This document shows, piece after piece, positions 2,822 through 27,879 of a DNA stretch of 27,879 nucleotides; position 1 is the first letter of the stretch, and each line of letters starts with the position of its first letter. The stretch lies in the UHGV virus genome UHGV-2100961. One strand, 5' to 3'. A model generated the notes under the pieces. That model was given only the letters and a program-made list of their open reading frames with translations. It was not told the DNA's origin and did no database searches. The stretch is from a virus. The position numbers and the translations under genes are program-made.

Positions 2822-4317
2822 TGGCGAGGGGTATCTGGGTTTCACCCGATGAATTTGTTGCTTTTTCTGAGCCTCAGAAATCACTGACCGCGCAGATTGC
2901 CTCCCGCAGCCGCGCGATCGACTTTTACGGACTGGGCATGTATCTGCCCAATCCTGATCCCATTCTCAAGGCTCAGGGACGGGATATCCGTATCTACCGC
3001 GAACTGCGCACCGACCCGCTGGTCGGGGGCTGTATCCGCAGACGTAAAGCAGCGCTCAAATCGCTGGAGCGTGGACTGGAGCGTGGTCACGCCTCTGCCC
3101 GGGTCTTCCGTTTCATCCGCGACATGCTCGACGATCTGGATCTGTCCCGCATCATCGGTGAAATGAGCGATGCCGTGCTCTACGGGTATCAGCCCTGTGA
3201 AATCATGTGGGGCCGTTCGGTCAGGTCGTGGGCGGTGACGGATATTGTCGGCAAACCGCCTGAGTGGTTTCAGTTTGATACGGACAACTGCCTGCGCTTC
3301 CGGGCGCGTGATGCGGGTGTGGAGGGTGAGCTGCTGTCACCGTCAAAATTCGTGGTGCCGGCACAGGATGCCTCGTATGACAATCCTTACGGTTTCCCGG
3401 ACCTGTCCATGTGCTTCTGGCCGGTCGCCTTCAAGAAAGGCGGGATGAAATTCTGGCTCCGCTTTGCCGAAAAGTTTGGCTCCCCGTGGGTGATCGGTAA
3501 GCACCCGAGGGGCGCAAATGATGCAGAGATTGAAAAACTGCTGGACTCCATGGAGCAGATGGTGGAGGACGCGGTGGCCGCCATCCCCGATGACAGCAGT
3601 ATTGAGCTCAGGGCAGCGGATGGCAAGGCAGACAGCAGCGAGGTATTTCGCGAGCTGATCACACTGTCACGCAGTGAGATCTCCATTGCATTACTCGGTC
3701 AGAATCAGACCACGGAAGCGAACAGTAACAAGGCCTCTGCACAGGCCGGGCTGGAGGTAACGGCTGATATCCGCGATGCGGATGCGGACATCATTCAGGC
3801 GGCAGTGAATCAGGTCATCAGAACGGTGGTCACCCTGAACTTCGGCGATGTGCCGTGTCCGGTCTGGGCCATGTGGGAACAGGAGGCCATTGATGACACC
3901 CGTGCCACCCGCGACGAAAAACTCACCCGGGCGGGTCTGCGTCTGACCCCGCAGTACTTCAAGCGTGAGTACCAACTGCAGGACGGCGATATTGACGAGA
4001 CACCACCGTCGGAACGCCAGAATAACATGCTGCCGCTGTCATTTGCCGAGGCGATTGATGCTGATATTCAGGCTCAGCAGCAGCTTGACGACGCGCTGGA
4101 CATTCTGATGAACGGAGGCGCGTTAAATGGCACGCTGGAACCCGTCCTGGCACCTCTGTTCAGGCGGGTCGAAAATGGGGTTAACCCGTCTGAGCTGCTG
4201 GGCGAACTGGCGGAGCTCTACCCTCAGATGAACACGGACGATCTGCAGGAGCGGCTGGCCCGCATTCTCTTTGTGACAAATATCTGGGGGCGTCTGCATG
4301 AGCGTGACAACGGCTGA
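2821..4317 (+). CDS. Portal protein (Mu gp29-like)
   Basis: 498-aa ORF following the terminase with TGATG overlap; acidic C-terminal region; size and position typical of Mu-like portal. Confidence 0.85.
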   Translation: MARGIWVSPDEFVAFSEPQKSLTAQIASRSRAIDFYGLGMYLPNPDPILKAQGRDIRIYRELRTDPLVGGCIRRRKAALKSLERGLERGHASARVFRFIRDMLDDLDLSRIIGEMSDAVLYGYQPCEIMWGRSVRSWAVTDIVGKPPEWFQFDTDNCLRFRARDAGVEGELLSPSKFVVPAQDASYDNPYGFPDLSMCFWPVAFKKGGMKFWLRFAEKFGSPWVIGKHPRGANDAEIEKLLDSMEQMVEDAVAAIPDDSSIELRAADGKADSSEVFRELITLSRSEISIALLGQNQTTEANSNKASAQAGLEVTADIRDADADIIQAAVNQVIRTVVTLNFGDVPCPVWAMWEQEAIDDTRATRDEKLTRAGLRLTPQYFKREYQLQDGDIDETPPSERQNNMLPLSFAEAIDADIQAQQQLDDALDILMNGGALNGTLEPVLAPLFRRVENGVNPSELLGELAELYPQMNTDDLQERLARILFVTNIWGRLHERDNG

Positions 4318-9138: not shown

Positions 9139-9389
9139 TGAAAGAATACCGCTATTCCGGCCCGGCCAGCGGCGTCACGCTGTCGGACGGAACCGAAATC
9201 CTGCTCTGGCCGGGGAAGACGGTTTCCCTGCCGGAGGAGCATGACTACGTGAAGGTACTGGTGGCGCTGAAGCATCTGACGCCGGTACCAGAAGATACTA
9301 AACCCGCCGTCACACCGGCTGTGCAGTCACCAAAGCGCAGAAGCAGCAGTGACAGCGAAGTGAAAACGGAGGACGCCCATGGCAGCTAA
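9135..9389 (+). CDS. Mu gp38-like small protein
   Basis: 84-aa ORF overlapping both neighbours (GTGATG, ATGG); immediately precedes the sheath gene. Confidence 0.6.
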   Translation: MMKEYRYSGPASGVTLSDGTEILLWPGKTVSLPEEHDYVKVLVALKHLTPVPEDTKPAVTPAVQSPKRRSSSDSEVKTEDAHGS

Positions 9390-10806
9390 CTATCTGCATG
9401 GTCCCGAAACCATTGAGGTGGAAAACGGTGCCCGCCCGGTTAAAACGGTGAAATCTGCCGTTATTGGCCTGATTGGTACCGCCCCGATGGGGGATGTCAA
9501 TACGCTGGTACAGTGCCTGTCTGAGAAAGACGCAGCGGCATTTGGCAGCCAGTTCACCGGCTTTACCATTCCGCAGGCGCTGGATGCGATTTATGACCAT
9601 GGTGCAGGTATCGTTCTGGTCATTAACGTCCTCGACCCGGCGAAACATAAAACGGCGATCGAGGATGAGGTGGTTACCTTTGACAAATCGACAGGGCAGG
9701 CCAGACTGGCGCATCCGGTTGTCGCTAATGTGGTGGTGAAAAACAGTGAAGGCAGCACCACCCACACGGCGAACACGGACTACCGTGTTGATGCGCAGGC
9801 GGGTGTGCTCACGAACCTGGGCAAGGCTATTGAGGCCGGTGGCAGCGTGAAGGTGAGCTATGAGTACGCGGACCCGTCGAAGGTGACTGCGGCGGACATC
9901 ATCGGCGGGGTGAACAGCGCCGGAAACCGAACCGGCATGAAGCTGCTTAACGACAGCTTCAACCTGTACGGCTATTTCGCCAAAATTCTGATTGCGCCGG
10001 TGTTCTGCACCCAGAAGAGTGTCGCAGTTGAGCTTATCGCCATGGCAGAGAAGCTGGGCGCGGTAACCTACATTGATGCGCCTGTCGGTACCACCTTTGC
10101 ACAGGCTCTGGCAGGTCGTGGCCCGGAAGGCACCATCAACTTCAATACCAGCTCCGACCGCGTCCGTCTGTGCTATCCGCATGTGAAGGTATATGACCCG
10201 GTGACAAACACAGAGCGTCTGGAGCCGCTCAGCCAGCGTGCAGCAGGTCTGCGTGCCAGAGTCGATCTGGACAAGGGCTACTGGTGGTCATCCTCCAATC
10301 AGGAGATTCTGGGGATCACTGGCGTGGAGCGCCAGCTGTCCGCGATGATTGATGACCCGCAGAGTGAGGTGAACCTGCTTAACGAACAGGGGATCACCAC
10401 GGTATTCAGCAGTTACGGCAGCGGCCTTCGTCTGTGGGGTAACCGGACGGCAGCATGGCCAACGGTCACCCATATGCGTAACTTTGAGAACGTTCGCCGC
10501 ACCGGTGATGTGATCAACGAGTCCATTCGTTATTTCAGCCAGCAGTACATCGACATGCCGATTACTCAGGCGCTGATTGATGCACTGACGGAGTCGGTCA
10601 ACGCCTACGGTCGCAAAATGACTGGTGATGGTGCGGTACTGGGCTTCCGTTGCTGGTTTGATCCGGCCCGCAATCCGGAGACGGAGCTGGCCGCCGGGCA
10701 CCTGTTGCTGAGCTACAAATATACGCCACCACCGCCGCTGGAGCGACTGACGTTTGAGACTGAGATCACCTCGGAATACCTGTTAACCCTGAAAGGGGGC
10801 AACTGA
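9379..10806 (+). CDS. Contractile tail sheath protein (Mu L-like)
   Basis: 475-aa ORF followed directly by the tube gene (stop/start overlap TGATG). Confidence 0.85.
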   Translation: MAANYLHGPETIEVENGARPVKTVKSAVIGLIGTAPMGDVNTLVQCLSEKDAAAFGSQFTGFTIPQALDAIYDHGAGIVLVINVLDPAKHKTAIEDEVVTFDKSTGQARLAHPVVANVVVKNSEGSTTHTANTDYRVDAQAGVLTNLGKAIEAGGSVKVSYEYADPSKVTAADIIGGVNSAGNRTGMKLLNDSFNLYGYFAKILIAPVFCTQKSVAVELIAMAEKLGAVTYIDAPVGTTFAQALAGRGPEGTINFNTSSDRVRLCYPHVKVYDPVTNTERLEPLSQRAAGLRARVDLDKGYWWSSSNQEILGITGVERQLSAMIDDPQSEVNLLNEQGITTVFSSYGSGLRLWGNRTAAWPTVTHMRNFENVRRTGDVINESIRYFSQQYIDMPITQALIDALTESVNAYGRKMTGDGAVLGFRCWFDPARNPETELAAGHLLLSYKYTPPPPLERLTFETEITSEYLLTLKGGN

Positions 10807-11327
10807 TGTCAAAGATTGAGATAAACCGCATCACGAATGCCAACATCTATCTGGATGGTACTAACCTGCTGGGACGGGCTGAGGAAGTTAAACTCCCCGA
10901 TGTCTCCATGATTATGCAGGAACACAAGGCGCTGGGGATGGTGGGTAAGGTGGAACTCCCGGCTGGTTTTGACAAACTGGAAGGCGAAATCAAATGGAAC
11001 AGCTTTTACCGCGATGCGATGCTGTCTGCAGCGAACCCGTACAGGTCGCTGGCACTGCAGTGTCGTTCCAGCGTCCAGCGCTACAGCTCGCAGGGGCTGA
11101 TTGACGAAATCCCGCTGGTCACCTTCCTGACGATTATGTTCAAGAAGAACCCGCTGGGGACGTTCAAACAGCACGAGAACGCCGAGTTCTCCAGTAGCTT
11201 CACCTGCACGTATATCAGACAGGTACTGGATGGTGAAGAGCTGCTGCAACTGGACTATCTGGCCAACATCTTCCGGGTCGGCGGTGTTGATCAACTGACT
11301 GACTACCGTATCAATATCGGGGGCTGA
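10806..11327 (+). CDS. Tail tube protein (Mu M-like)
   Basis: 173-aa ORF directly downstream of the sheath gene. Confidence 0.8.
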   Translation: MSKIEINRITNANIYLDGTNLLGRAEEVKLPDVSMIMQEHKALGMVGKVELPAGFDKLEGEIKWNSFYRDAMLSAANPYRSLALQCRSSVQRYSSQGLIDEIPLVTFLTIMFKKNPLGTFKQHENAEFSSSFTCTYIRQVLDGEELLQLDYLANIFRVGGVDQLTDYRINIGG

Positions 11328-11329
11328 CG

Positions 11330-11611
11330 GTGAGTGTTGAACTGACGGATAAAGGAGGACGATGTGCGGCACTGGGCATGTCAAATGGTACGTGGTTTAC
11401 CCTCCTTGATATTCCGGGGGTGGAAACCCTTTTTAATACCCGTAAAACCAATGACCCGATTGACTGCACACGTTCAAAGGCCCGCAAACTGGCGGATTTG
11501 ATTGAAGCATGGGAGCCTCCCGACCACTGGTTCTCCGGCATCGGCAAATCTGAGGGAAAGACGCTTCTCATCGCTTTCCTGCGTAACTGCAAGGGGTTTC
11601 GCACTTGCTGA
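11330..11611 (+). CDS. Hypothetical small protein (moron-like insertion between tube and chaperone genes)
   Basis: 93-aa ORF if GTG 11330 is used, 77 aa from ATG 11378; no family recognised; followed by a stem-loop at 11618-11633. Confidence 0.45.
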   Translation: MSVELTDKGGRCAALGMSNGTWFTLLDIPGVETLFNTRKTNDPIDCTRSKARKLADLIEAWEPPDHWFSGIGKSEGKTLLIAFLRNCKGFRTC

Positions 11612-11617
11612 CATCAC

Positions 11618-11640
11618 AGGGGCTCCGGCCCCTTCTTCTT
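11618..11640 (+). terminator. Candidate intrinsic terminator
   Basis: AGGGGC-TCCG-GCCCCT hairpin (6-bp GC stem, 4-nt loop) followed by TCTTCTT, 7 nt after the stop of the small ORF. Confidence 0.4.
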
Positions 11641-11708
11641 AATCTCCTTTAATATCCGTCACGCGCTTCTCCCGACATACTGCCCTGAACTTACACAGGA
11701 GCACAATC

Positions 11709-12044
11709 ATGTCACAGACCCCATCCGATACTTTTAAATTGTCTTATCCCTTCACCACTGCTGCAGGCACCAGAATTGAGCTGGTTGAACTGAAACGCCT
11801 GACGGTAAAAGACCTGAAGCAGGTGCGCAAAATCAGCAAAAACCCGGCAGACTGGGACGAACCGCTGATTGCCCGCAGTACTGGTCTTCTCCCGGAAGAT
11901 CTCGACAATATGGATCTGGCTGATTACCTGCAGTTACAGAAACGATTTCAGCTCATCACGGGGATGGGTGAGAGCAACCAGGGCGCTGACGCAGGCGCAG
12001 GGGCTGCTGGCGAGATGGTTCCGGTTTCAGCCGGGGGAGATTGA
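11709..12044 (+). CDS. Tail assembly chaperone (Mu gp41-like)
   Basis: 111-aa acidic ORF with RBS CAGGAG, located between tube and tape-measure genes; ends in a G-rich run (CCGGGGGAG) with an overlapping ORF in the +1 frame. Confidence 0.7.
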   Translation: MSQTPSDTFKLSYPFTTAAGTRIELVELKRLTVKDLKQVRKISKNPADWDEPLIARSTGLLPEDLDNMDLADYLQLQKRFQLITGMGESNQGADAGAGAAGEMVPVSAGGD

Positions 12045-12126
12045 TGCCCTCGATACTGACGATCTGGAGATGTGGCTGGAGCAGGCTGAAGAGCAAATAA
12101 AAAGCGAGTACGGCGACAAATCATAG
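12031..12126 (+). CDS. Candidate frameshift extension of the tail assembly chaperone (+1/-2 frame)
   Basis: ORF 11869..12126 is open in the +1 frame across the chaperone stop; a shift at GGG-GGA (12033-12038) would append about 29 aa (..EIDALDTDDLEMWLEQAEEQIKSEYGDKS). Confidence 0.3.
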   Translation, partial: PGEIDALDTDDLEMWLEQAEEQIKSEYGDKS

Positions 12127-12201
12127 TACAGACAGCCGCCAGTAGCGGCTGTTCTGCGTTATTCCCTCACGTCTTTTCACCTTCCCCGGAGGTTAACCAC
12201 T

Positions 12202-15153
12202 ATGTCGGGACAGTTTTCAGTCGGCGTTGTTATCGGCGGGATGATTGGCAGCACATTCCGTTCTGCAATGAGCGGTACCCGCCGTGCGCTTGATTCCCTG
12301 AGCGATACCTCACGCCGCCTGCAGGAACGTCAGAACGCTTTAACCCGTGCAACAGAACGTTATGGTCAACTGGGTTCTTCCCGGATGCAGCATCTCAACA
12401 GCGAGCTGCTGCGGGTAAGCCGCACCATGGAGCAAATTGAGCGCCAGCAGCGCCGTCTGTCAGCGGCATCCGCTACCAGTGATGCGCTGAAAGCTAACCG
12501 CATGGCGCTGTATGGTCAGGGGATTGAAGCGTATGGCATGGCACAGACTGTTTATCATACGGTTTCCCCTGCCGTTCAGCAGTCCATGTCTTTTCAGGAC
12601 AAAATGATTGATATGTCGATCACCGCAAAATATGACAATAAAACGCGGGATGCACTTGCCGGACAGATAAAAGGCTGGGCGCTTAAATACAATCAGTATC
12701 AGGATGAGCTGCAGGAGGCGGTGGGTTCACTCATCAGCGACAATATTGATAATGTGTCAGATATCGGTTTTCTGATGCCGGATATTGCCCGCGCGGCAAC
12801 GGCAACACGCACGTCTGCTCAGGACTGGGCAAAAGTGGCCGCAGTCTGGCAAAACTCCCTGAAAGGTGCGGCCAGAGATTTTGGTGCCGTTCAGAATATT
12901 ATGGCTTATGCCGGTGACCAGGGGTCATTTGAAATCCCGGATCAGGTCAAGTGGATGCAGTCCCTGGCCCCAATGATGGCGGGTATTGCCAGTGGAAAAG
13001 AGGCTGTTGCTGAAATCGGGGCCAGTCTCCAGATAGCAAAAATCGGTGCAGGTTCCACCGACGAAGCAGCTAATAATTTTAAAAACTTTCTTACCAAAAT
13101 TTTTGCCCGCGATACTCAGAAACAGTTTGCTGATCTGGGTATTGATTTGCAGGGATCTATTGCGAGTTATAAAGCTGCGGGGATCTCTCCGATTGAAGGG
13201 ATGTTGAGTGTTATAGAACGTTACCTCAATGCCAAAAGCCCCGAAGCGCTGGCCGGCTTCAAATCAGCCATGAAAATAAAGAATGATACGGCAAGAGATG
13301 AGGCACTTCAGGCTCTGGCGAAAAACTTTGGTCTGGGCGATATGTTCGCGGATATGCAGGTCATGGCATTTATCCGCCCGATGCTGGCCAACATGGACAG
13401 ATATCGAGAGATCCGTGCCGGTGCTCTCAGGGCTGCGGATAACGATTTGCTTGCCAGTGCTTATGATCAGCGGCTGAAATCTCCCCTTGAAGCCACTAAA
13501 ACACTTATGGTCAGCAGTCGCGATCTGGCAATTACGCTGGGCGATCAATTAGCTCCATCTTTTATTTCTTTGACTCAGGAACTGCTTCCACTCATTCAGG
13601 GGGCAAAACACTGGGTAGCGACTCACCCGCAATTTGTCAGTGGGGCTTTTAAGCTCATCAGTGCGCTCCTTGCGATTAAGATAGCGACTGTTGGTCTCAA
13701 ACTGGGGCTGAATCTCCTTATTTCCCCCTTTGTAAGTGTCTGGAAAAATGCTGTTTTACTTCGGGCCAACTGGCTTCGTCTGTCGCTCGCACTGGGGCAA
13801 GGCGGTAAGCTCCGCTGGCTGGTGACCGGATTTAGCGCCGTCGCCAGAGGAGCCAGAACACTGAGTGGCGTGCTCTCCGGGGGGCTGGTTCGCGGAATTA
13901 TGCTCGCCGGACGTGCTGTTCTCTGGATTGGACGTGCGCTGATGATGAATCCCATCGGTCTCGTTATCACCGCTGTCGCGGCAGCAGCTTACCTTATCTA
14001 CCGCAACTGGGGGGCAGTCAGTGGCTGGTTTAAACAGCGCTGGGCAGACATTCAGGAAGCCTTTAACGGCGGCATTGTGGGAATTGGTAAGTTACTGATT
14101 AACTGGTCGCCGGCAGGCCTGCTCTATAAAGCCTTTGCGGCTGCGCTGAAATATTTCGGCGTTGCTCTGCCGGCAAAGTTCACCGACTTCGGTGGCCATC
14201 TTATCGACGGTCTGATTAACGGTATCAAAAACAAATGGGGGTCGCTCAAATCCAGTGTAACCGGAATGGGTGACAGCATCAGTAGCTGGTTTAAACAGTG
14301 CTGGGCTGACATTCAGGAAGCCTTTAACGGCGGTATCGCGGGAACTGGTAAGCTGCTGATTAACTGGTCGCCGGCAGGTCTGCTCTATAAAGCCTTTGCA
14401 GCTGCGCTGAAATATCTTGGTGTTGATCTGCCGGCAAAGTTCACCGACTTCGGTGGCCATCTTGTCGACGGTCTGATTAACGGTATCAAAAACAAATGGG
14501 AGTCGCTCAAATCCAGTGTAACCGGAATGGGTGACAGCATCAGTGGCTGGTTCAGCGAAAAGCTGGGCATTCATTCGCCGAGCCGCGTGTTTATGGGCTT
14601 TGGTGACAATATCGCGCAGGGGGCCGCCATTGGCCTGCAGCGGACCACTCCGCTTGCAGCTCTGGCCGGGCAGCGAATGGCCAGTGAACTGCTCCCCAGA
14701 ATGCCCGTGAGCATTCAGGGGCCAGAAATACGGGATAACACTTCAGGTGTTCGCTTCAGTATGCCGTTGCCCGATATCAATGGGTTTATGTCGTCTGCTA
14801 AAAATGCGATCGGAGCCGTAATCAATAGTTTGTCTTCCATGCCCGCTATCCCGCTCTCCACCCGGGCATCGATTTTACCAGGGCAACGTCTGGCAAATGA
14901 GATGACACCGGATGTTCCCCGTATCCCCTCGCCTGAAATCATGGCTGCCGGATATTCAGGCCGTGGTGCAGCTGCAACCGGCGGTGGAACGTCTGGTGGT
15001 ATCCAGGTCAGCTTTAATCCTCAGTTTTTCCTCAATGGCAGGGAAACCACAGCGCCTGCAGGACTGACTGGTGCCCTGAATATGAGTCTGCATGAGCTGG
15101 AAAAAATGCTGGAGCGTCTGCTGGCTCAGAAACAACGTAAGGAGTACCGCTGA
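12202..15153 (+). CDS. Tail tape measure protein
   Basis: 983-aa ORF after the chaperone; coiled-coil N-terminus, hydrophobic Gly-rich central segments, internal tandem duplication. Confidence 0.85.
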   Translation: MSGQFSVGVVIGGMIGSTFRSAMSGTRRALDSLSDTSRRLQERQNALTRATERYGQLGSSRMQHLNSELLRVSRTMEQIERQQRRLSAASATSDALKANRMALYGQGIEAYGMAQTVYHTVSPAVQQSMSFQDKMIDMSITAKYDNKTRDALAGQIKGWALKYNQYQDELQEAVGSLISDNIDNVSDIGFLMPDIARAATATRTSAQDWAKVAAVWQNSLKGAARDFGAVQNIMAYAGDQGSFEIPDQVKWMQSLAPMMAGIASGKEAVAEIGASLQIAKIGAGSTDEAANNFKNFLTKIFARDTQKQFADLGIDLQGSIASYKAAGISPIEGMLSVIERYLNAKSPEALAGFKSAMKIKNDTARDEALQALAKNFGLGDMFADMQVMAFIRPMLANMDRYREIRAGALRAADNDLLASAYDQRLKSPLEATKTLMVSSRDLAITLGDQLAPSFISLTQELLPLIQGAKHWVATHPQFVSGAFKLISALLAIKIATVGLKLGLNLLISPFVSVWKNAVLLRANWLRLSLALGQGGKLRWLVTGFSAVARGARTLSGVLSGGLVRGIMLAGRAVLWIGRALMMNPIGLVITAVAAAAYLIYRNWGAVSGWFKQRWADIQEAFNGGIVGIGKLLINWSPAGLLYKAFAAALKYFGVALPAKFTDFGGHLIDGLINGIKNKWGSLKSSVTGMGDSISSWFKQCWADIQEAFNGGIAGTGKLLINWSPAGLLYKAFAAALKYLGVDLPAKFTDFGGHLVDGLINGIKNKWESLKSSVTGMGDSISGWFSEKLGIHSPSRVFMGFGDNIAQGAAIGLQRTTPLAALAGQRMASELLPRMPVSIQGPEIRDNTSGVRFSMPLPDINGFMSSAKNAIGAVINSLSSMPAIPLSTRASILPGQRLANEMTPDVPRIPSPEIMAAGYSGRGAAATGGGTSGGIQVSFNPQFFLNGRETTAPAGLTGALNMSLHELEKMLERLLAQKQRKEYR
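14026..14547 (+). repeat. In-frame tandem duplication inside the tape-measure gene (2 x 261 bp, 87 aa each)
   Basis: Anchor TGGTTTAAACAG at 14026 and 14287 (period 261); encoded units WFKQRWADIQEAFNGGIVGIGKLLINWSPAGLLYKAF.. and WFKQCWADIQEAFNGGIAGTGKLLINWSPAGLLYKAF.. are near-identical; a third partial start (GWFSEK) at 14548. Confidence 0.85.
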
Positions 15154-17984: not shown

Positions 17985-18038
17985 GCTTTTTAAACGCCTT
18001 TAATATCAGCGTTCCCGCACGGGGGCAATACTGCCCCC

Positions 18039-22891: not shown

Positions 22892-23647
22892 TCAAGTCGC
22901 GCTTGTTACTGCCTTCGCTGTCTTTTTCCTGTAGCTTTCACCTTTCAGTTCGAACATATATCCGTGATGGATCAGCCGGTCTGCCGCCGCCACCGCCATA
23001 GTCTCATCCACGAAGATGCTGCCCCACATGCTGAACGGATGGTTACTGGTTATCACCAGGCTCCCACGTTCATAGCGATGCGCTATTAACTCGAACAGTA
23101 CTCCCGTTTCGGCGCTGTCGCGTTTGACATAGCCAAGATCATCCACCACTATCACCCGGTAGCGATCCAGTTTCAGTAGCAGCTCATTCAGTTTCAACTG
23201 CGCTCTGGCTTTACGTAGTTCCTGCAACAACTCTCCTGCGCTGTAGAACCGGGCCCGGTAGCCCTGGCCTACTACGCCATCCACGATCGCTGCCGCCAGA
23301 TGGCTTTTCCCCAACCCGCTGGCTCCGAACAGCAGAACGTTTTCTCCTGCATCAACCCAGTCTGTCGTTTCACAGAGTTGCCGGAACTGAGCTCCATTCA
23401 GTTCCGGCACCTGACTGAAGTCGTATTCGCTTAGCGTTTTGGCAACTGGCAACCGGGCCTCCTTTTTATAACGACGCAGTTTTTCACTCTCGCGCCACAG
23501 GAGTTCTTCATTGCATAGCGTCAGAAGATAGCGCGATGGTGTCCAGCCTTCTGCCAGTGCTCGTTTTTCCAGAGCGTGCCATTCAGCTCCAACTCGTGTC
23601 AGGCGTAGTTTACGCAGGCTGCGTTCAAGGTGATGGATATTGCTCAC
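22892..23647 (-). CDS. istB: IS21-family ATP-binding helper protein IstB
   Basis: 251-aa ORF with Walker A (GASGLGKSH) and Walker B (VIVVDDLG) motifs and the C-terminal ..LKGESYRKK.. segment typical of IstB. Confidence 0.85.
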   Translation of the reverse strand: MSNIHHLERSLRKLRLTRVGAEWHALEKRALAEGWTPSRYLLTLCNEELLWRESEKLRRYKKEARLPVAKTLSEYDFSQVPELNGAQFRQLCETTDWVDAGENVLLFGASGLGKSHLAAAIVDGVVGQGYRARFYSAGELLQELRKARAQLKLNELLLKLDRYRVIVVDDLGYVKRDSAETGVLFELIAHRYERGSLVITSNHPFSMWGSIFVDETMAVAAADRLIHHGYMFELKGESYRKKTAKAVTSAT

Positions 23648-25143
23648 TGCGAACCGCCCTTGCCACGCAGTAGTTGCTCATAACTGCTCAGGTTATGCTG
23701 TTTCACATTGACTACCGGCAACGCCTTTTCCTTTATACCCAGGAAGCGCATCAGCCGGTGCAGATCCACGTTTCCCGGGGTATTCAGCATCTGCTCCATA
23801 CCTTTTGCCACGACTGAGATATCGTCGTATCCTGCAGCCAGTTTCAGAGCATGTACCATCAGCCTGCCTGCCATGTCGGGTTCCAGATGATTACATAAGC
23901 GACGCCACAGCCTCCGCCATTCATCGTCTGGCAGGATGTCATTTCTCAGCGTTGCATGGCAGAACGCACCGGGCTTTTTTGCCAGACTGTCGATCACATG
24001 TCGGAAGTCGATACGACGGGCCCGCGTCTTCCCTTTTTCTGGTCTGACACGTGGGCAGCTCATGACCTCGCTGCTGCCAACGTAACAGCTCAGACGATCG
24101 TCCCATAACCGGACCCGTAACAGTTGACCTACAAGCCGGGAAGGTACGCTGTAGACGACGTGCTTCACATTGATGGTACTGCTGCGGCTAACCCTCACAG
24201 TCAGCTCATCATAGTCAGCACTGCGACGAAGCGGCAGCGGTTTCAGATGAAGACGTTCTTCCTTGACCAGATCCTGATTGTTACGGTTGTGCCGCATAAC
24301 CTGCTGAGTGATGAAGGCCTGATATTCTTCTATGGTGCTGAAGTCGTTACTGCCCCGCAGTATCAGCGCCTGACAGATACGCCTTTTCAGATGTCCGTGG
24401 GCACTTTCAACCGAGCCATTTTCGTGGCCCCGACCGGCATTATTGTGTACGCCCTGCATTCCGTAGTGCTGACAGAGAGCAGCATAACGCTCAGTCAGCT
24501 CGCGGCGTCCATCTTCGCCCTGTTGTTTCCATGCTGCCCTCAGGCTGTCCGTTTTATGTTCTACCGGCACTCCGCCCAGTTGTCCGAGGGCTTCCTGCAG
24601 ACCTTCAGCCAGAGCAGAGAAGCTCTCACCACCCAGCACAACCCGCATCCAGCTCCAGTGGCTCCATTCCAGACGGAAGTGATACAACTTATGCGCCAAC
24701 AACTTACCGGCGATGGTGACAACTACACCTTTCAGTTCAGTAAAGTCCGACAGACCTCGCAGACCGGGCTGATGTCGCTGGCGGAACATGACCTCCTGCT
24801 CTGCACCATACTGTAGCTTCCATTCGCGGACCCGCCGTTGCATTGTTCTTCGAAGGCTGTTGGGGTACTGGCCGGGATATTTATCCTGTAGCATCTCCAG
24901 CAGAGTTGTTGGTGTCAGAGCCGGCCTCTCTTTCAACAGAGGAACAAGCATGCTGTCCCACACAGCTTCCAGAGGATCTTTGCGTGTGCGCCAGTGCCGA
25001 ACACTGTTTTTTGCCCACTCTCCTTTTTCGATCCGACGACCAGAACGGACTGAGATACCAGCCTTCATGGCCGAGATATGCTGAGTTATACCTTTCTTAC
25101 GCTGAGTCATATAGTAACTGACCTGAGAAGTATTGAGCGTCAC
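23644..25143 (-). CDS. istA: IS21-family transposase IstA
   Basis: 499-aa ORF immediately upstream of, and overlapping by 4 nt, an IstB-like ATPase gene; operon architecture diagnostic of IS21-family elements. Confidence 0.8.
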   Translation of the reverse strand: MTLNTSQVSYYMTQRKKGITQHISAMKAGISVRSGRRIEKGEWAKNSVRHWRTRKDPLEAVWDSMLVPLLKERPALTPTTLLEMLQDKYPGQYPNSLRRTMQRRVREWKLQYGAEQEVMFRQRHQPGLRGLSDFTELKGVVVTIAGKLLAHKLYHFRLEWSHWSWMRVVLGGESFSALAEGLQEALGQLGGVPVEHKTDSLRAAWKQQGEDGRRELTERYAALCQHYGMQGVHNNAGRGHENGSVESAHGHLKRRICQALILRGSNDFSTIEEYQAFITQQVMRHNRNNQDLVKEERLHLKPLPLRRSADYDELTVRVSRSSTINVKHVVYSVPSRLVGQLLRVRLWDDRLSCYVGSSEVMSCPRVRPEKGKTRARRIDFRHVIDSLAKKPGAFCHATLRNDILPDDEWRRLWRRLCNHLEPDMAGRLMVHALKLAAGYDDISVVAKGMEQMLNTPGNVDLHRLMRFLGIKEKALPVVNVKQHNLSSYEQLLRGKGGSQ

Positions 25144-25200
25144 GCCATTTCCTGTTGGATCATGTAAATGACACTCAGGTTACAAAACCGGCCAGAATAA

Positions 25201-26226
25201 TCGGCGCCAGGCGGACTGAGTTATTGTCGTCTCATAGTAACCGATCCCGCAGAAGCGTCCCGGCTGATTCGTCGGGGACATCTGACTTATACTCAGGCCC
25301 GTAATATCACCCGGTTCGGGACCATCGAATCGGTCACTTATGATATTGCCGAGGGTTCGGTTGTCAGTCTGGCGGCCGGAGGGATCAGTTTTGCCCTGAC
25401 GGCATCGGTCTTCTGGCTCAGCACCGGCGATCGCGATGCTGCCCTGCAGACAGCTGCTGTCCAGGCAGGAAAAACCTTCCCCCGCACACTGGCTGTCTAC
25501 GTCACAACCCAGCAACTCCACCGGCTCAGTGTTGTTCAGGGTATGCTGAAGCACATTGATTTTTCGACTGCCAGCCCGACTGTCCGACTGGCTCTTCAGA
25601 AGGGGACCGGTGCAGGAAATATCAGTGCCCTGAACAAAGTAATGAAGGGTACGCTGGTGACATCTCTGGCACTGGTAGCTGTCACAACCGGCCCTGACAT
25701 GATCAAAATGTTGCGGGGACGGATCTCCGGTGCGCAGTTCATCAGGAATCTTGCCGTGGCATCTTCCGGTGTGGCAGGTGGAGCTGTCGGGTCAGTGGCG
25801 GGCGGGATACTGTTCAGTCCACTGGGACCATTTGGTGCACTGACAGGGCGTGTGGTTGGCGGTGTTCTGGGGGGAATGATTGCCTCCGCTGTATCAGGAA
25901 AAATTGCCGGAGCGCTGGTTGAAGAAGATCGCGTCAAAATTCTGGCAATGATTCAGGAGCAGGTGACATGGCTTGCCGGCAGTTTCCTGCTGACCGGACA
26001 TGAGATTGAAAATCTGAACGAGAATCTGGCCCGTGTTATCGATCAGAATGCTCTGGAGATCATTTTCGCCGCCGGTATACAACAACGGGCCGCGACCAAT
26101 ATGTTAATCAAACCACTGGTGGTCAGTATCATCAGGCAACGCCCCGTCATGGAATATGATGCATCCCATCTCGGCAATATGGTTAACCGGCTGGAAGAAG
26201 CATTACCCCCGGAGTTACCGGCATAA
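25201..26226 (+). CDS. Glycine-zipper membrane protein ORF, probably 5'-truncated at the IS junction (alternatively a 227-aa protein from ATG 25543)
   Basis: Frame is open for 114 codons upstream of the first ATG back to the IS edge with no in-frame ATG/GTG/TTG; contains GVAGGAVGSVAGGILFSPLGPFGALTGRVVGGVLGGMIASAVSG (GxxxG repeats); no family assigned. Confidence 0.45.
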   Translation, partial: SAPGGLSYCRLIVTDPAEASRLIRRGHLTYTQARNITRFGTIESVTYDIAEGSVVSLAAGGISFALTASVFWLSTGDRDAALQTAAVQAGKTFPRTLAVYVTTQQLHRLSVVQGMLKHIDFSTASPTVRLALQKGTGAGNISALNKVMKGTLVTSLALVAVTTGPDMIKMLRGRISGAQFIRNLAVASSGVAGGAVGSVAGGILFSPLGPFGALTGRVVGGVLGGMIASAVSGKIAGALVEEDRVKILAMIQEQVTWLAGSFLLTGHEIENLNENLARVIDQNALEIIFAAGIQQRAATNMLIKPLVVSIIRQRPVMEYDASHLGNMVNRLEEALPPELPA

Positions 26227-26301
26227 CGGCTATTCTGCGCCTTTTACGCTTTATCACCTGATTTGTCAGTGTCATCGTCATGACTCAGAGAGGTAAATAC
26301 C

Positions 26302-26757
26302 ATGATTCACCTGTTCAAAACCTGCATGATTACCGCCTTCATTCTGGGGTTAACGTGGTCTGCCCCACTCCGGGCACAGGATCAACGTTACATCAGTATA
26401 CGCAATACAGATACGATATGGCTCCCGGGAAATATTTGTGCTTACCAGTTCCGGCTGGATAATGGCGGAAACGGTGAAGGATTTGGCCCCCTCACCATCA
26501 CTCTGCAACTCAAAGACAAATATGGTCAGACGCTGGTGACCAGAAAAATGGAAACGGAAGCTTTTGGTGACAGTAATGCCACGCGAACCACAGACGCATT
26601 TCTGGAAACGGAGTGCGTGGAAAATGTCGCCACAACCGAAATCATTAAAGCAACTGAAGAAAGTAACGGCCATCGTGTCAGTCTGCCGTTATCGGTTTTC
26701 AATCCCCAGGACTACCATCCACTGCTGATTACCGTTTCCGGAAAAAACGTTAACTGA
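26302..26757 (+). CDS. Small secreted/periplasmic protein of unknown function
   Basis: 151-aa ORF with RBS AGAGAGG; N-terminal signal-peptide-like sequence (MIHLFKTCMITAFILGLTWSAPLRAQDQ); followed by a strong terminator. Confidence 0.65.
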   Translation: MIHLFKTCMITAFILGLTWSAPLRAQDQRYISIRNTDTIWLPGNICAYQFRLDNGGNGEGFGPLTITLQLKDKYGQTLVTRKMETEAFGDSNATRTTDAFLETECVENVATTEIIKATEESNGHRVSLPLSVFNPQDYHPLLITVSGKNVN

Positions 26758-26781
26758 TCCCTGAAGTCAGTTTCATGCTTC

Positions 26782-26820
26782 AGCCTCTGTCACAACGCGT
26801 GGCAGAGGCTTTTTATTTAT
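26782..26820 (+). terminator. Rho-independent terminator
   Basis: AGCCTCTGTC / GGCAGAGGCT 10-bp stem with 9-nt loop, followed by TTTTTATTTAT. Confidence 0.75.
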
Positions 26821-26839
26821 CAGGAGAAAACAGATATGC

Positions 26840-27879
26840 GTAAGCGTGCAGCAAGAACCGTATTGACGGGGATGTGTTATTCAGTCGGCAGTGCTACGCG
26901 CCAGGGGAGCAGTTCGCCGACCCGGTTTATCGGCCAGTCGGCTATGACGTCAAGGACATAGCGGAGGTAGCTTTCTGGCTCCACTCCGTTCAGTTTGCAC
27001 GTCCCGATCAGGCTGTACAGCAGCGCTCCCCGCTCTCCTCCATGATCCGAACCGAAGAACAGGTAGTTTTTGCGGCCCAGACTGACCATCCGCAACGCAT
27101 TTTCAGCGATGTTATTGTCCGCCTCAGCCCAGCCATCATCTGCATAGTACGTCAGCGCCGGCCACTGGTTCAGGGCGTATGCGAACGCTTTCGCCAGTTC
27201 TGAGTGTCGCGACAGGGTTTTCATCTTTTCACGCAGCCAGCTTTCCAGGGATTTCAGCAGCGGTTTCGTTTTCAACTGACGTTCGGCAAGGCGCTGCTCC
27301 GCCGTCATTCCCCTTATCTCTGCCTCGATGGCGTACAGTTCGCCGATCCGTTTCAGCGCTTCCTCCGTCAGGGCTGACGGGGTGCGAACGTGCACATCGT
27401 GGATTTTACGGCGGGCATGAGCCCAACAGGCGGCTTCCGTTATCCGGTCATCCCGGTACAGCTCGTTGAACCCGGCGTATGCATCCGCCTGCAGTACACC
27501 ACTGAACCCCGCAAGATGGGTCTGCGGATGGATGCCTTTTCTGTCCGGGCTGTAAGCGAACCACACCGCCGGCGCCAGCGTTGACCCGGCGTTACGGTCG
27601 TCACGAACGTAGGTCCATAACCGCCCGGTCTTCGTTTTCTTATTGCCTGGCAACAGCACCGGGACAGGCGTGTCATCAGCATGGAGCTTACCGTCAGTCA
27701 GCACATAGTCCTGAAGCGCCTCTTCCAGCGGAGACAGCAGCCGGCAGCATGCATCCACCCAGCCCGACAGCAGTGAACGGCTCAGCTCCACACCTTGCCG
27801 ACCGTATATTTCTGACTGGCGATACAGCGGGGTGTGCTCTGCATACTTCGAGGTCAGCACGCGGGCCAGCAGCCCCGGT
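26840..27879 (-). mobile_element. IS66-family element, terminal ~1 kb (continues beyond the window)
   Basis: Terminus begins GTAAGCGTGCAGCAAG at about 26840, 37 nt from the end of a TnpC-like transposase ORF that runs off the window edge. Confidence 0.7.
26877..27879 (-). CDS. IS66-family transposase (TnpC-like), C-terminal portion; N-terminus outside the window
   Basis: Minus-strand ORF of at least 327 aa ending ..[22 protein letters not shown]..; recognised as the IS66-type transposase C-terminal region; frame still open at the window edge. Confidence 0.75.

What the first reader, a model, noticed from the sequence alone, without database searches (positions are those of the whole stretch)
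11330..11640. Moron-like small ORF with its own terminator between tube and chaperone genes
In canonical Mu-like tail operons the chaperone follows the tube gene directly. Here a 77-93-aa ORF (start ambiguous, GTG 11330 or ATG 11378) is wedged in, followed by a GC hairpin terminator and a ~100-bp gap before the chaperone RBS. I recognise no family for the product (..TRKTNDPIDCTRSKARKLADLIEAWEPPDHWFSGIGKSEGKTLLIAFLRNCKGFRTC). Small terminator-bearing insertions inside structural operons are a classic site for lysogenic-conversion, anti-defence or superinfection-exclusion cargo.
Basis: partly seen in the sequence, partly recalled or inferred. Interest (0 to 1): 0.5.

Follow-up and report, generated by a model that had tools for sequence, protein, structure and literature searches.

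The report
Accessory gene after phage tube gene
A small, real but dispensable phage gene of unknown function (family DUF7739) sits at the end of the sheath-tube transcription unit of a BcepMu-like E. coli prophage, just upstream of a terminator that belongs to the phage backbone; this is an ordinary cargo gene at a variable junction.

Summary
The ORF is real. It runs 11330..11611 (+), starts at GTG and encodes 93 aa. It matches PHROG 1239 end to end (E 5e-48) and is a divergent member of Pfam DUF7739. It is under purifying selection (dN/dS 0.09-0.18).

It is an accessory gene. Among 80 viral contigs with a tube protein at least 91% identical, the tube/chaperone junction has four states:
- empty (8)
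- this ORF alone (61, 8 of them disrupted)
- a Gp49/Sf6-gp66 gene plus this ORF (10)
- an unrelated ORF (1)

BcepMu itself has an empty junction. Homologues at 28-56% identity lie in the early-left, nin or replication regions of lambdoid, P22-like and larger phages, so the function does not depend on the tail.

The "own terminator" reading is wrong. Empty junctions keep the same hairpin, U-tract and downstream motif, so the ORF was inserted between the tube stop codon and a backbone terminator. It starts 2 nt after the tube stop. The scan found no promoter, and base composition matches the flanks. It is therefore late-transcribed cargo, not a self-contained moron.

The parts
10806..11327 (+). 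Tail tube gene (P2 FII type), the backbone gene upstream. Its last codons (ATC GGG GGC TGA) supply a Shine-Dalgarno-like G-run for the ORF.
   Evidence: PF04985 E 2.9e-53. 67% identical to BcepMu gp40.
11319..11323 (+). GGGGG run, a Shine-Dalgarno-like element 6 nt upstream of the GTG start and inside the end of the tube gene.
   Evidence: Read directly from the sequence. Its function as a ribosome-binding site is inferred.
11330..11611 (+). Accessory gene of 93 aa with a GTG start. Member of the DUF7739 / PHROG 1239 family; predicted to be a small soluble alpha/beta protein.
   Evidence: PHROG 1239 E 4.7e-48 over the full length. DUF7739 24.7 bits. dN/dS 0.09-0.18. AlphaFold2 pLDDT 89. Present or absent among near-identical backbones.
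11618..11643 (+). Backbone intrinsic-terminator-like hairpin (stem-loop 11618..11633) with a U-rich tail (11634..11643). It marks the 3' end of the sheath-tube(-cargo) transcription unit.
   Evidence: An equivalent hairpin with a different stem sequence follows the tube stop or the cargo in 10 of 11 junction types, including empty ones and BcepMu.
11646..11689 (+). Conserved intergenic motif CCTTTAATATCCG ... GACATACTGCCCTGAA upstream of the chaperone gene. Possibly a late promoter or regulatory site belonging to the backbone.
   Evidence: Conserved in both empty and occupied junctions. A second copy lies at 17997..18036, before gpW. Function untested.
11709..12126 (+). gpE-type tail assembly chaperone (11709..12044) with an overlapping frameshift-extension ORF (11869..12126). 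This is the backbone gene downstream.
   Evidence: PF10109 E 5.5e-21. ORF map. BcepMu gp41-43 annotation.

Best explanation
ORF 11330..11611 is a functional accessory (cargo) gene of the DUF7739 / PHROG 1239 family. It was captured at the 3' end of the sheath-tube late transcription unit of an enterobacterial BcepMu-like prophage, between the tube stop codon and a pre-existing intrinsic terminator.

It has no promoter or terminator of its own. It is most likely transcribed with the sheath and tube genes late in lytic growth. Translation would start at a GTG 2 nt after the tube stop, using a G-run inside the tube gene's last codons. Because the downstream chaperone/tape-measure genes keep their own conserved upstream region, insertion here costs the phage nothing. 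That would explain why this junction collects different small genes.

The product is a 93-aa soluble alpha/beta protein that works independently of the tail. The most likely mechanism is that it binds and neutralises a host protein, either a defence factor or a DNA-metabolism factor.

**Shown:** the gene is real, it is under selection, it is dispensable and mobile, the terminator belongs to the backbone, and the composition matches the flanks.

**Inferred:** late co-transcription, translational coupling, and the inhibitor role. I put about 0.85 on the genomic and regulatory picture and about 0.3 on the inhibitor mechanism.
For: **Real gene**
- Full-length PHROG 1239 match.
- 33 close and 76 distant cluster representatives.
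- dN/dS 0.09-0.18, against 0.02-0.04 for the tube gene and 0.18-0.26 for the chaperone.
- Confident AlphaFold2 model, pLDDT 89, pTM 0.80.

**Cargo at a hot spot**
- Among 80 IMG/VR loci with tube identity of at least 91%: 8 empty, 1 with an unrelated PHROG 9518 ORF, 10 with an extra PF13876 Gp49/Sf6-gp66 gene plus this ORF, and 61 with this ORF alone, 8 of them disrupted.
- Empty junction in BcepMu, Ralstonia YO107_2 and ECO95.

**Backbone terminator**
- Empty junctions retain the hairpin, U-tract and CCTTTAATATC motif.
- Stems differ in sequence but all fold, at -11.8 to -24.1 kcal/mol.

**Not an autonomous unit**
- No promoter-like site in 10500..12500.
- GC 52.3% against 53.2% and 54.1% for the flanking genes.
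- No flanking repeats.

**Tail-independent function**
- Sf6 gene 22, HK620/CUS-3 hkaH and HK75 homologues lie in the early-left region, next to abc2, Lar and Ea22.
- Homologues in nin regions lie next to Ead/Ea22.
- Others sit in RecT/YqaJ or Erf/SSB early regions and in large-phage replication regions.

**Fold**
Against: - There are no expression data. The promoter scan is a crude consensus test and cannot exclude an activator-dependent or internal promoter.
- The fold similarity is modest. Foldseek finds nothing at E <= 1e-3 in the PDB or BFVD, and DMP12 shares only 6% identity.
- No member of the family has a tested function. Literature searches for DUF7739, PHROG 1239, hkaH and fHe-Yen8-01 found nothing relevant.
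- There is no match in PADLOC or NCBIfam.
- Net charge is not conserved across the family (-10 to +5). This copy has pI 8.4, which argues against DNA mimicry.
- About 1 in 8 copies in the surveyed prophages is disrupted.
- One homologue, in Yersinia phage fHe-Yen8-01, is annotated 'particle associated protein', which hints at a virion role instead.
Confidence: 0.6

Rival explanations
1. Classical moron: an autonomous cassette expressed from the repressed prophage that gives the lysogen a new trait, such as superinfection exclusion or lysogenic conversion.
For: It lies between genes that are adjacent in related phages. A hairpin follows it. The prophage is widespread in E. coli, 633 of 5426 complete genomes, including clinical strains.
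Against: The hairpin is a backbone feature present in empty junctions. No sigma-70-like promoter was found in the 800 nt upstream on either strand. The start codon lies 2 nt after the tube stop. Composition does not differ from the flanks. By inspection of the sequence, the protein has no signal peptide or membrane segment, unlike most exclusion proteins.
Confidence: 0.12
2. Virion-associated cargo protein: made late so that it is packaged or bound to the particle and delivered into the next host, where it acts before any phage gene is expressed.
For: It sits in a late operon, coupled to the tube gene. The 39%-identical homologue gp123 of Yersinia phage fHe-Yen8-01 is annotated 'particle associated protein', near other particle-associated proteins.
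Against: Most homologues are in early-left, nin or replication regions, which are expressed early. The basis of the Yersinia annotation could not be traced. No packaging signal or fusion to a structural domain is evident.
Confidence: 0.1
3. Tail morphogenesis accessory: a lineage-specific helper of tube or sheath assembly, or a second chaperone.
For: It lies between the tube and chaperone genes. There is a weak, non-significant PHROG 1442 'tail assembly chaperone' hit (E 0.41).
Against: It is absent from relatives whose tube proteins are 91-96% identical, and from BcepMu. Homologues occur in podoviruses that have no tube or sheath (Sf6, CUS-3, HK620 type) and outside structural modules. The PHROG hit is at chance level.
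Confidence: 0.04
4. DNA-mimic protein like DMP12 that titrates a DNA-binding host protein such as HU or a nuclease.
Against: This copy has net charge +2 and pI 8.4, and the enterobacterial clades are neutral to basic. Foldseek gives DMP12 only E 0.86. The conserved residues (NGTWF, TNDP, W-x-PP, C-x-GF) are not acidic patches.
Confidence: 0.05

Closest known systems
Morons of lambdoid phages (HK97/HK022 concept; recalled from my own knowledge of Juhala et al. 2000)
   Same: An extra gene lies between two genes that are adjacent in related phages. It is dispensable, and its homologues are scattered in other phage contexts.
   Different: It has no promoter of its own by the scan and no terminator of its own, since the hairpin is backbone. 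Its composition is not distinct. It is coupled to the upstream tube gene, so late lytic expression is expected rather than prophage expression.
Sf6 gene 22 / HK620-CUS-3 HkaH / PHROG 1239 / Pfam DUF7739
   Same: Homologous at 42% identity over the full length, with the same length of about 93-100 aa and the same conserved motifs.
   Different: Those copies sit in early-left or nin accessory arrays of lambdoid and P22-like phages. This clade (67-99% identity, Escherichia to Photorhabdus) sits after the tube gene of BcepMu-like myoviruses. No member has a known function.
Neisseria DMP12 (PDB 3w1o), a DNA mimic that binds HU (PMC3643605)
   Different: Only 6% identity. Foldseek is not significant. 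This protein is slightly basic and lacks the global negative charge that defines a DNA mimic.
N4 Gp49 / Sf6 gene 66 family (PF13876)
   Same: Another small phage accessory gene of unknown function. In 10 of 80 relatives it occupies the same junction, immediately upstream of the ORF with an overlapping stop/start.
   Different: It is unrelated in sequence and absent from this window.
Variable cargo slots of P2-like phages, such as the positions holding old, tin and Z/fun (recalled from my own knowledge)
   Same: A fixed junction between conserved genes holds alternative, unrelated non-essential genes in different isolates.
   Different: This slot lies inside the tail gene cluster upstream of a terminator. 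The P2 cargo genes have known exclusion phenotypes; this gene has none shown.

Membership tests
Moron (autonomous accessory transcription unit) | Inserted between genes that are adjacent in related phages | tested here: met
   Empty tube/chaperone junctions in BcepMu, Ralstonia YO107_2, ECO95 and 8 of 80 close relatives.
Moron (autonomous accessory transcription unit) | Own promoter immediately upstream | tested here: not met
   No sigma-70-like sites in 10500..12500 on either strand. The GTG lies 2 nt after the tube stop. This is a consensus scan only; an experiment is needed to be certain.
Moron (autonomous accessory transcription unit) | Own factor-independent terminator | tested here: not met
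   The hairpin and U-tract are also present in junctions without the ORF, with varied stem sequences. The terminator belongs to the backbone.
Moron (autonomous accessory transcription unit) | Nucleotide composition distinct from the neighbours | tested here: not met
   GC 52.3% against tube 53.2%, chaperone 54.1% and tape measure 52.8%. GC3 0.548 against 0.568 and 0.539 for chaperone and tape measure.
Moron (autonomous accessory transcription unit) | Expressed from the repressed prophage | not testable with these tools
   No transcriptome data are available here.
PHROG 1239 / Pfam DUF7739 | Significant full-length profile match | tested here: met
   PHROG 1239 E 4.7e-48, residues 1-93 to profile 1-96 of 96. 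Pfam DUF7739 gives 24.7 bits, just under the 27-bit cut-off, for this copy. A 98%-identical cluster carries a precomputed PF24881 hit, and 12 of 49 relatives hit it, best at 7.3e-19.
DNA mimic proteins (DMP12 type) | Fold resemblance to DMP12 | tested here: inconclusive
DNA mimic proteins (DMP12 type) | Strongly acidic protein with a DNA-like negative surface | tested here: not met
   pI 8.4 and net charge +2 for this copy. Family charge ranges from -10 to +5.
DNA mimic proteins (DMP12 type) | Binds a DNA-binding protein (HU) in competition with DNA | not testable with these tools
   Needs biochemistry.
Tail structural or assembly genes of Mu/P2-type tails | Conserved at this position in phages with the same tail module | tested here: not met
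   Absent in BcepMu and in relatives with 91-96% identical tube proteins. Homologues occur in podoviruses.
Known anti-phage defence proteins (PADLOC) | Profile match to a defence-system component | tested here: not met
   No PADLOC families at E <= 10.

The most novel reading that the evidence does not exclude
DUF7739 / PHROG 1239 is an uncharacterised family of small phage-encoded inhibitors of a host defence or DNA-metabolism protein. It moves between the early accessory arrays of lambdoid phages and a cargo slot upstream of the post-tube terminator of BcepMu-like prophages. That slot would then be a small counter-defence or accessory island that also hosts Gp49/Sf6-gp66 and PHROG 9518 genes.
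Probability: 0.3. Interest if true: 0.55.

Novelty: new member of a known kind. Interest (0 to 1): 0.3.

Why it matters
About 12% of complete E. coli genomes (633 of 5426, many of them clinical isolates) carry this prophage junction with the gene, always annotated 'hypothetical protein'. Knowing that it is selected, dispensable, mobile cargo makes it, and the junction's alternative occupants, reasonable candidates for counter-defence or host-takeover screens. The analysis also shows that a hairpin downstream of a small ORF need not belong to that ORF; comparison with empty sites settles the question. Beyond that, this is the usual mosaic pattern of phage accessory genes and does not open a new question.

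Tried and rejected
**Tried, with no useful result**
- Pfam, NCBIfam and PADLOC scans gave no functional family.
- A profile search of PDB sequences gave only a chance hit, E 1.4.
- Foldseek against the PDB and BFVD gave nothing at E <= 1e-3.
- The afdb50 library was unavailable.
- Literature searches for DUF7739, PHROG 1239, hkaH and fHe-Yen8-01 returned nothing relevant.
- A search for flanking direct or inverted repeats that would mark a transposition or integration event found only chance-sized matches.
- The possible 63-aa minus-strand ORF at the Pseudomonas Komp_PAO1_1 junction has no PHROG match.

**Considered and rejected**
- ATG 11378 as the start codon, because the N-terminus is conserved across the family.
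- The minus-strand shadow ORF 11311..11604, because selection and the profile matches are in the plus frame.
- A structural tail role, because of the presence/absence pattern and the homologues in podoviruses.
- DNA mimicry for this copy, because it is basic.
- Recent foreign origin judged from composition, because GC matches the flanks.

Full report
**Context.** The window is the late region of a BcepMu-like (Bcepmuvirus) prophage of E. coli. It is 99.8% identical across the region to Escherichia phage PhiKM and 88% identical to Klebsiella phage KP12. The gene order is: gp37-like, a small gene, sheath (9379..10806), tube (10806..11327), the ORF in question, gpE-type chaperone (11709..12044, with frameshift ORF 11869..12126), tape measure (12202..15153), then gpU, gpD, spike, gpW, gpJ, gpI, fibre and fibre assembly.

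**Observation.** The ORF runs 11330..11611 on the plus strand and encodes 93 aa from a GTG located 2 nt after the tube stop codon. A GGGGG run formed by the last tube codons lies 6 nt upstream of the GTG. Six nt after the ORF stop there is a hairpin, AGGGGC-TCCG-GCCCCT (11618..11633), followed by TCTTCTTAAT. It folds at -12.8 kcal/mol with z -3.5. A further 97 nt separate the ORF stop from the chaperone ATG.

The GTG start is the correct one. PHROG 1239 aligns over residues 1-93 (E 4.7e-48), and every one of 49 aligned relatives starts M-[TS]-V-E.

**Is it a gene?** Yes.
- Close homologues are abundant in Escherichia, Salmonella, Citrobacter, Shigella, Serratia, Morganella and Photorhabdus.
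- An exhaustive profile search of 1.84 billion cluster representatives finds a small family: 76 representatives at E <= 1e-3, nearly all stand-alone proteins of about 90-100 aa.
- dN/dS against the window copy is 0.09-0.18 for homologues at the same position. The tube gene gives 0.02-0.04 and the chaperone 0.18-0.26.
- AlphaFold2 gives a confident compact model (pLDDT 89, pTM 0.80) with topology beta-beta-alpha-beta-alpha-alpha-beta.
- Conserved motifs are NGTWF, TNDP, W-x-PP and a C-terminal C-x-GF-x-T.
- By inspection, there is no hydrophobic segment or signal peptide.

**Is it an insertion?** Yes. I fetched 80 viral contigs whose tube protein is 91-100% identical and mapped the tube gene, the ORF and the chaperone on each.

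| Junction state | Loci (of 80) |
|---|---|
| ORF alone (8 of these have frameshifts, premature stops or an internal deletion) | 61 |
| Extra 97-aa gene plus the ORF, with overlapping stop/start | 10 |
| Empty, 87-129 nt between tube and chaperone | 8 |
| Unrelated 66-aa ORF instead | 1 |

- The extra 97-aa gene belongs to PF13876, the N4 Gp49 / Sf6 gene 66 family (E 4.6e-12).
- The unrelated 66-aa ORF matches PHROG 9518 (E 1e-31).
- BcepMu itself, Ralstonia phage YO107_2 and the ECO95 fragment go from tube to chaperone without any ORF.
- These loci are not independent samples, because many are near-identical. The four junction states are nevertheless unambiguous.
- In complete E. coli genomes, 641 of 5426 hold the locus. 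Of these, 633 cover at least 80% of a tube-ORF-chaperone query, and the ORF is always annotated 'hypothetical protein'.

**The terminator is not the ORF's own.** Aligning empty and occupied junctions shows that empty sites read: tube stop, a few nt, GC hairpin, U-rich tract, CCCCTTTAATATCCG, about 20 variable nt, GACATACTGCYCTGAA, RBS, chaperone ATG. Occupied sites have exactly the same string after the cargo stop codon.

The hairpin stems differ between lineages:
- GGGGCTCCGGCCCC
- GGGGGCCGCAAGGCTCCC
- GGGAGCCTTACCGCTCCC
- GGGGCCTGGTGGCCCC
- BcepMu: GGCCCGCTTCGGCGGGCC
- Ralstonia: GCCCACTTCGGTGGGC

All fold at -11.8 to -24.1 kcal/mol and are followed by U-rich tracts. Only one junction type (L078/L085) lacks a hairpin. 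The hairpin is therefore a conserved backbone element that ends the sheath-tube unit. It probably acts as a partial terminator that lowers expression of the low-copy chaperone and tape-measure genes; that role is an inference. Cargo genes are inserted just upstream of it.

**No autonomy.**
- The consensus scan finds no sigma-70-like promoter on either strand in 10500..12500, where shuffles give a mean of 1.0.
- GC content is 52.3%, against 53.2% for the tube gene and 54.1% for the chaperone. GC3 resembles the chaperone and tape measure.
- No flanking repeats are detectable.

The gene is thus best described as passenger cargo on the late sheath-tube transcript, translationally coupled to the tube gene. 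It is not a promoter-plus-terminator moron cassette.

**Where else the family lives.** By tblastn against phage genomes and by looking up contigs that encode distant members:

| Context | Identity to this ORF |
|---|---|
| After the tube gene in BcepMu-like phages, out to Photorhabdus | 67-99% |
| Lambdoid early-left or nin regions next to Ead/Ea22 or EaA genes (Edwardsiella EPP-1, Enterobacter MII_001, Citrobacter Omnitron, a metagenomic lambdoid) | 52-56% |
| Sf6 gene 22, CUS-3/HK620 hkaH, HK75, in the early-left operon two genes from abc2 and near a Lar-like gene | about 42% |
| SSU5/pHCM2-like phage-plasmids | 39-44% |
| Between RecT/YqaJ and int in a Xenorhabdus prophage | 39% |
| After Erf/SSB/dUTPase | 27% |
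| Replication or nucleotide-metabolism regions of larger phages | 24-37% |

Some of these hosts are podoviruses, so a role in tube or sheath assembly is excluded. The pattern fits a single capture from a lambdoid accessory array into the enterobacterial BcepMu lineage.

**Function.** Nothing is known for any member.
- Foldseek lists the same proteins but none is significant, and BFVD adds nothing.
- DMP12's defining property is a DNA-like acidic surface (PMC3643605). Most DUF7739 members are acidic, with median pI 4.84. This copy and the other enterobacterial clades are neutral to basic (pI 8.4, net charge +2). The charge is not conserved, so DNA mimicry is unlikely for this protein.
- The small size, the soluble single domain, the resemblance to binding or immunity proteins, and the residence among anti-RecBCD, restriction-alleviation and Ea genes all point the same way. 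I consider a stoichiometric inhibitor of a host protein the most likely mechanism, at roughly 0.3 probability.
- One Yersinia phage homologue is annotated 'particle associated protein'. I could not trace the basis of that annotation, so I keep a virion-cargo rival at 0.1.

**Verdict.** The family is already catalogued (DUF7739, PHROG 1239) with unknown function. This is an ordinary example of phage mosaicism with a tidy explanation for why the site tolerates insertions. Interest is modest.

Noticed in passing
window 11646..11689 and 17997..18036: The motif CCTTTAATATC-N18/19-CA(A/T)ACTGCCC occurs twice. One copy lies between the post-tube hairpin and the chaperone gene; the other lies immediately upstream of gpW (18039). 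The loose pattern is expected 0.21 times by chance. It is conserved in relatives whether or not cargo is present. It may be an activator-dependent late promoter or another regulatory site. In the second copy, part of the motif can pair as a GGGGGC/GCCCCC hairpin.
   Followed up: partly
window 14018..14552: The tape-measure gene contains a 261-bp tandem duplication: 2.0 copies, 93% match, in frame, about 87 aa per copy. This would lengthen the tail ruler. The PhiKM GenBank record has a sequencing gap inside the same gene, probably caused by this repeat.
   Followed up: partly
window 22892..27860: Downstream of the tail-fibre assembly gene lie an IS21-type IstA/IstB pair (22892..25143, minus strand), an ORF of the IrmA family (interleukin receptor mimic protein A, PF18673, E 3e-38) at 26302..26757, and an IS66 transposase (26877..27860, minus strand). 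A virulence-associated gene is thus flanked by IS elements at the prophage end.
   Followed up: no
L034, L042, L046, L051, L055, L056, L061, L063, L071 (about 3520..3810) and L039: Relatives carry a PF13876 (N4 Gp49 / Sf6 gene 66) gene of about 97 aa between the tube gene and the DUF7739 gene. Its stop overlaps the DUF7739 start (ATGA). This is a second mobile accessory gene, also found in lambdoid phages, at the same slot.
   Followed up: partly
L083 3520..3720: One relative has an unrelated 66-aa ORF (MSEKIVVNAEQIKALAEF..., PHROG 9518, unknown function) at the same junction, followed by its own version of the hairpin and U-tract.
   Followed up: partly
L089 (Pseudomonas phage Komp_PAO1_1) 3016..3410: The equivalent tube/chaperone junction is about 390 nt long. 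It has a terminator-like hairpin right after the tube gene and a possible 63-aa ORF on the opposite strand downstream of the hairpin. That ORF has no PHROG match. The junction may be a cargo site in other genera too.
   Followed up: partly
L004 (Yersinia phage fHe-Yen8-01) 3501..3809: The 39%-identical homologue gp123 is annotated 'particle associated protein'. It sits near other particle-associated proteins and a giant ADP-ribosyltransferase toxin gene. No paper describing the basis of this annotation was found.
   Followed up: partly
L078, L085 junction (about 3520..3610): Two relatives with empty junctions lack the post-tube hairpin altogether but keep the CCCTTTAATATCCG motif. The terminator is therefore not universal in the lineage.
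   Followed up: no
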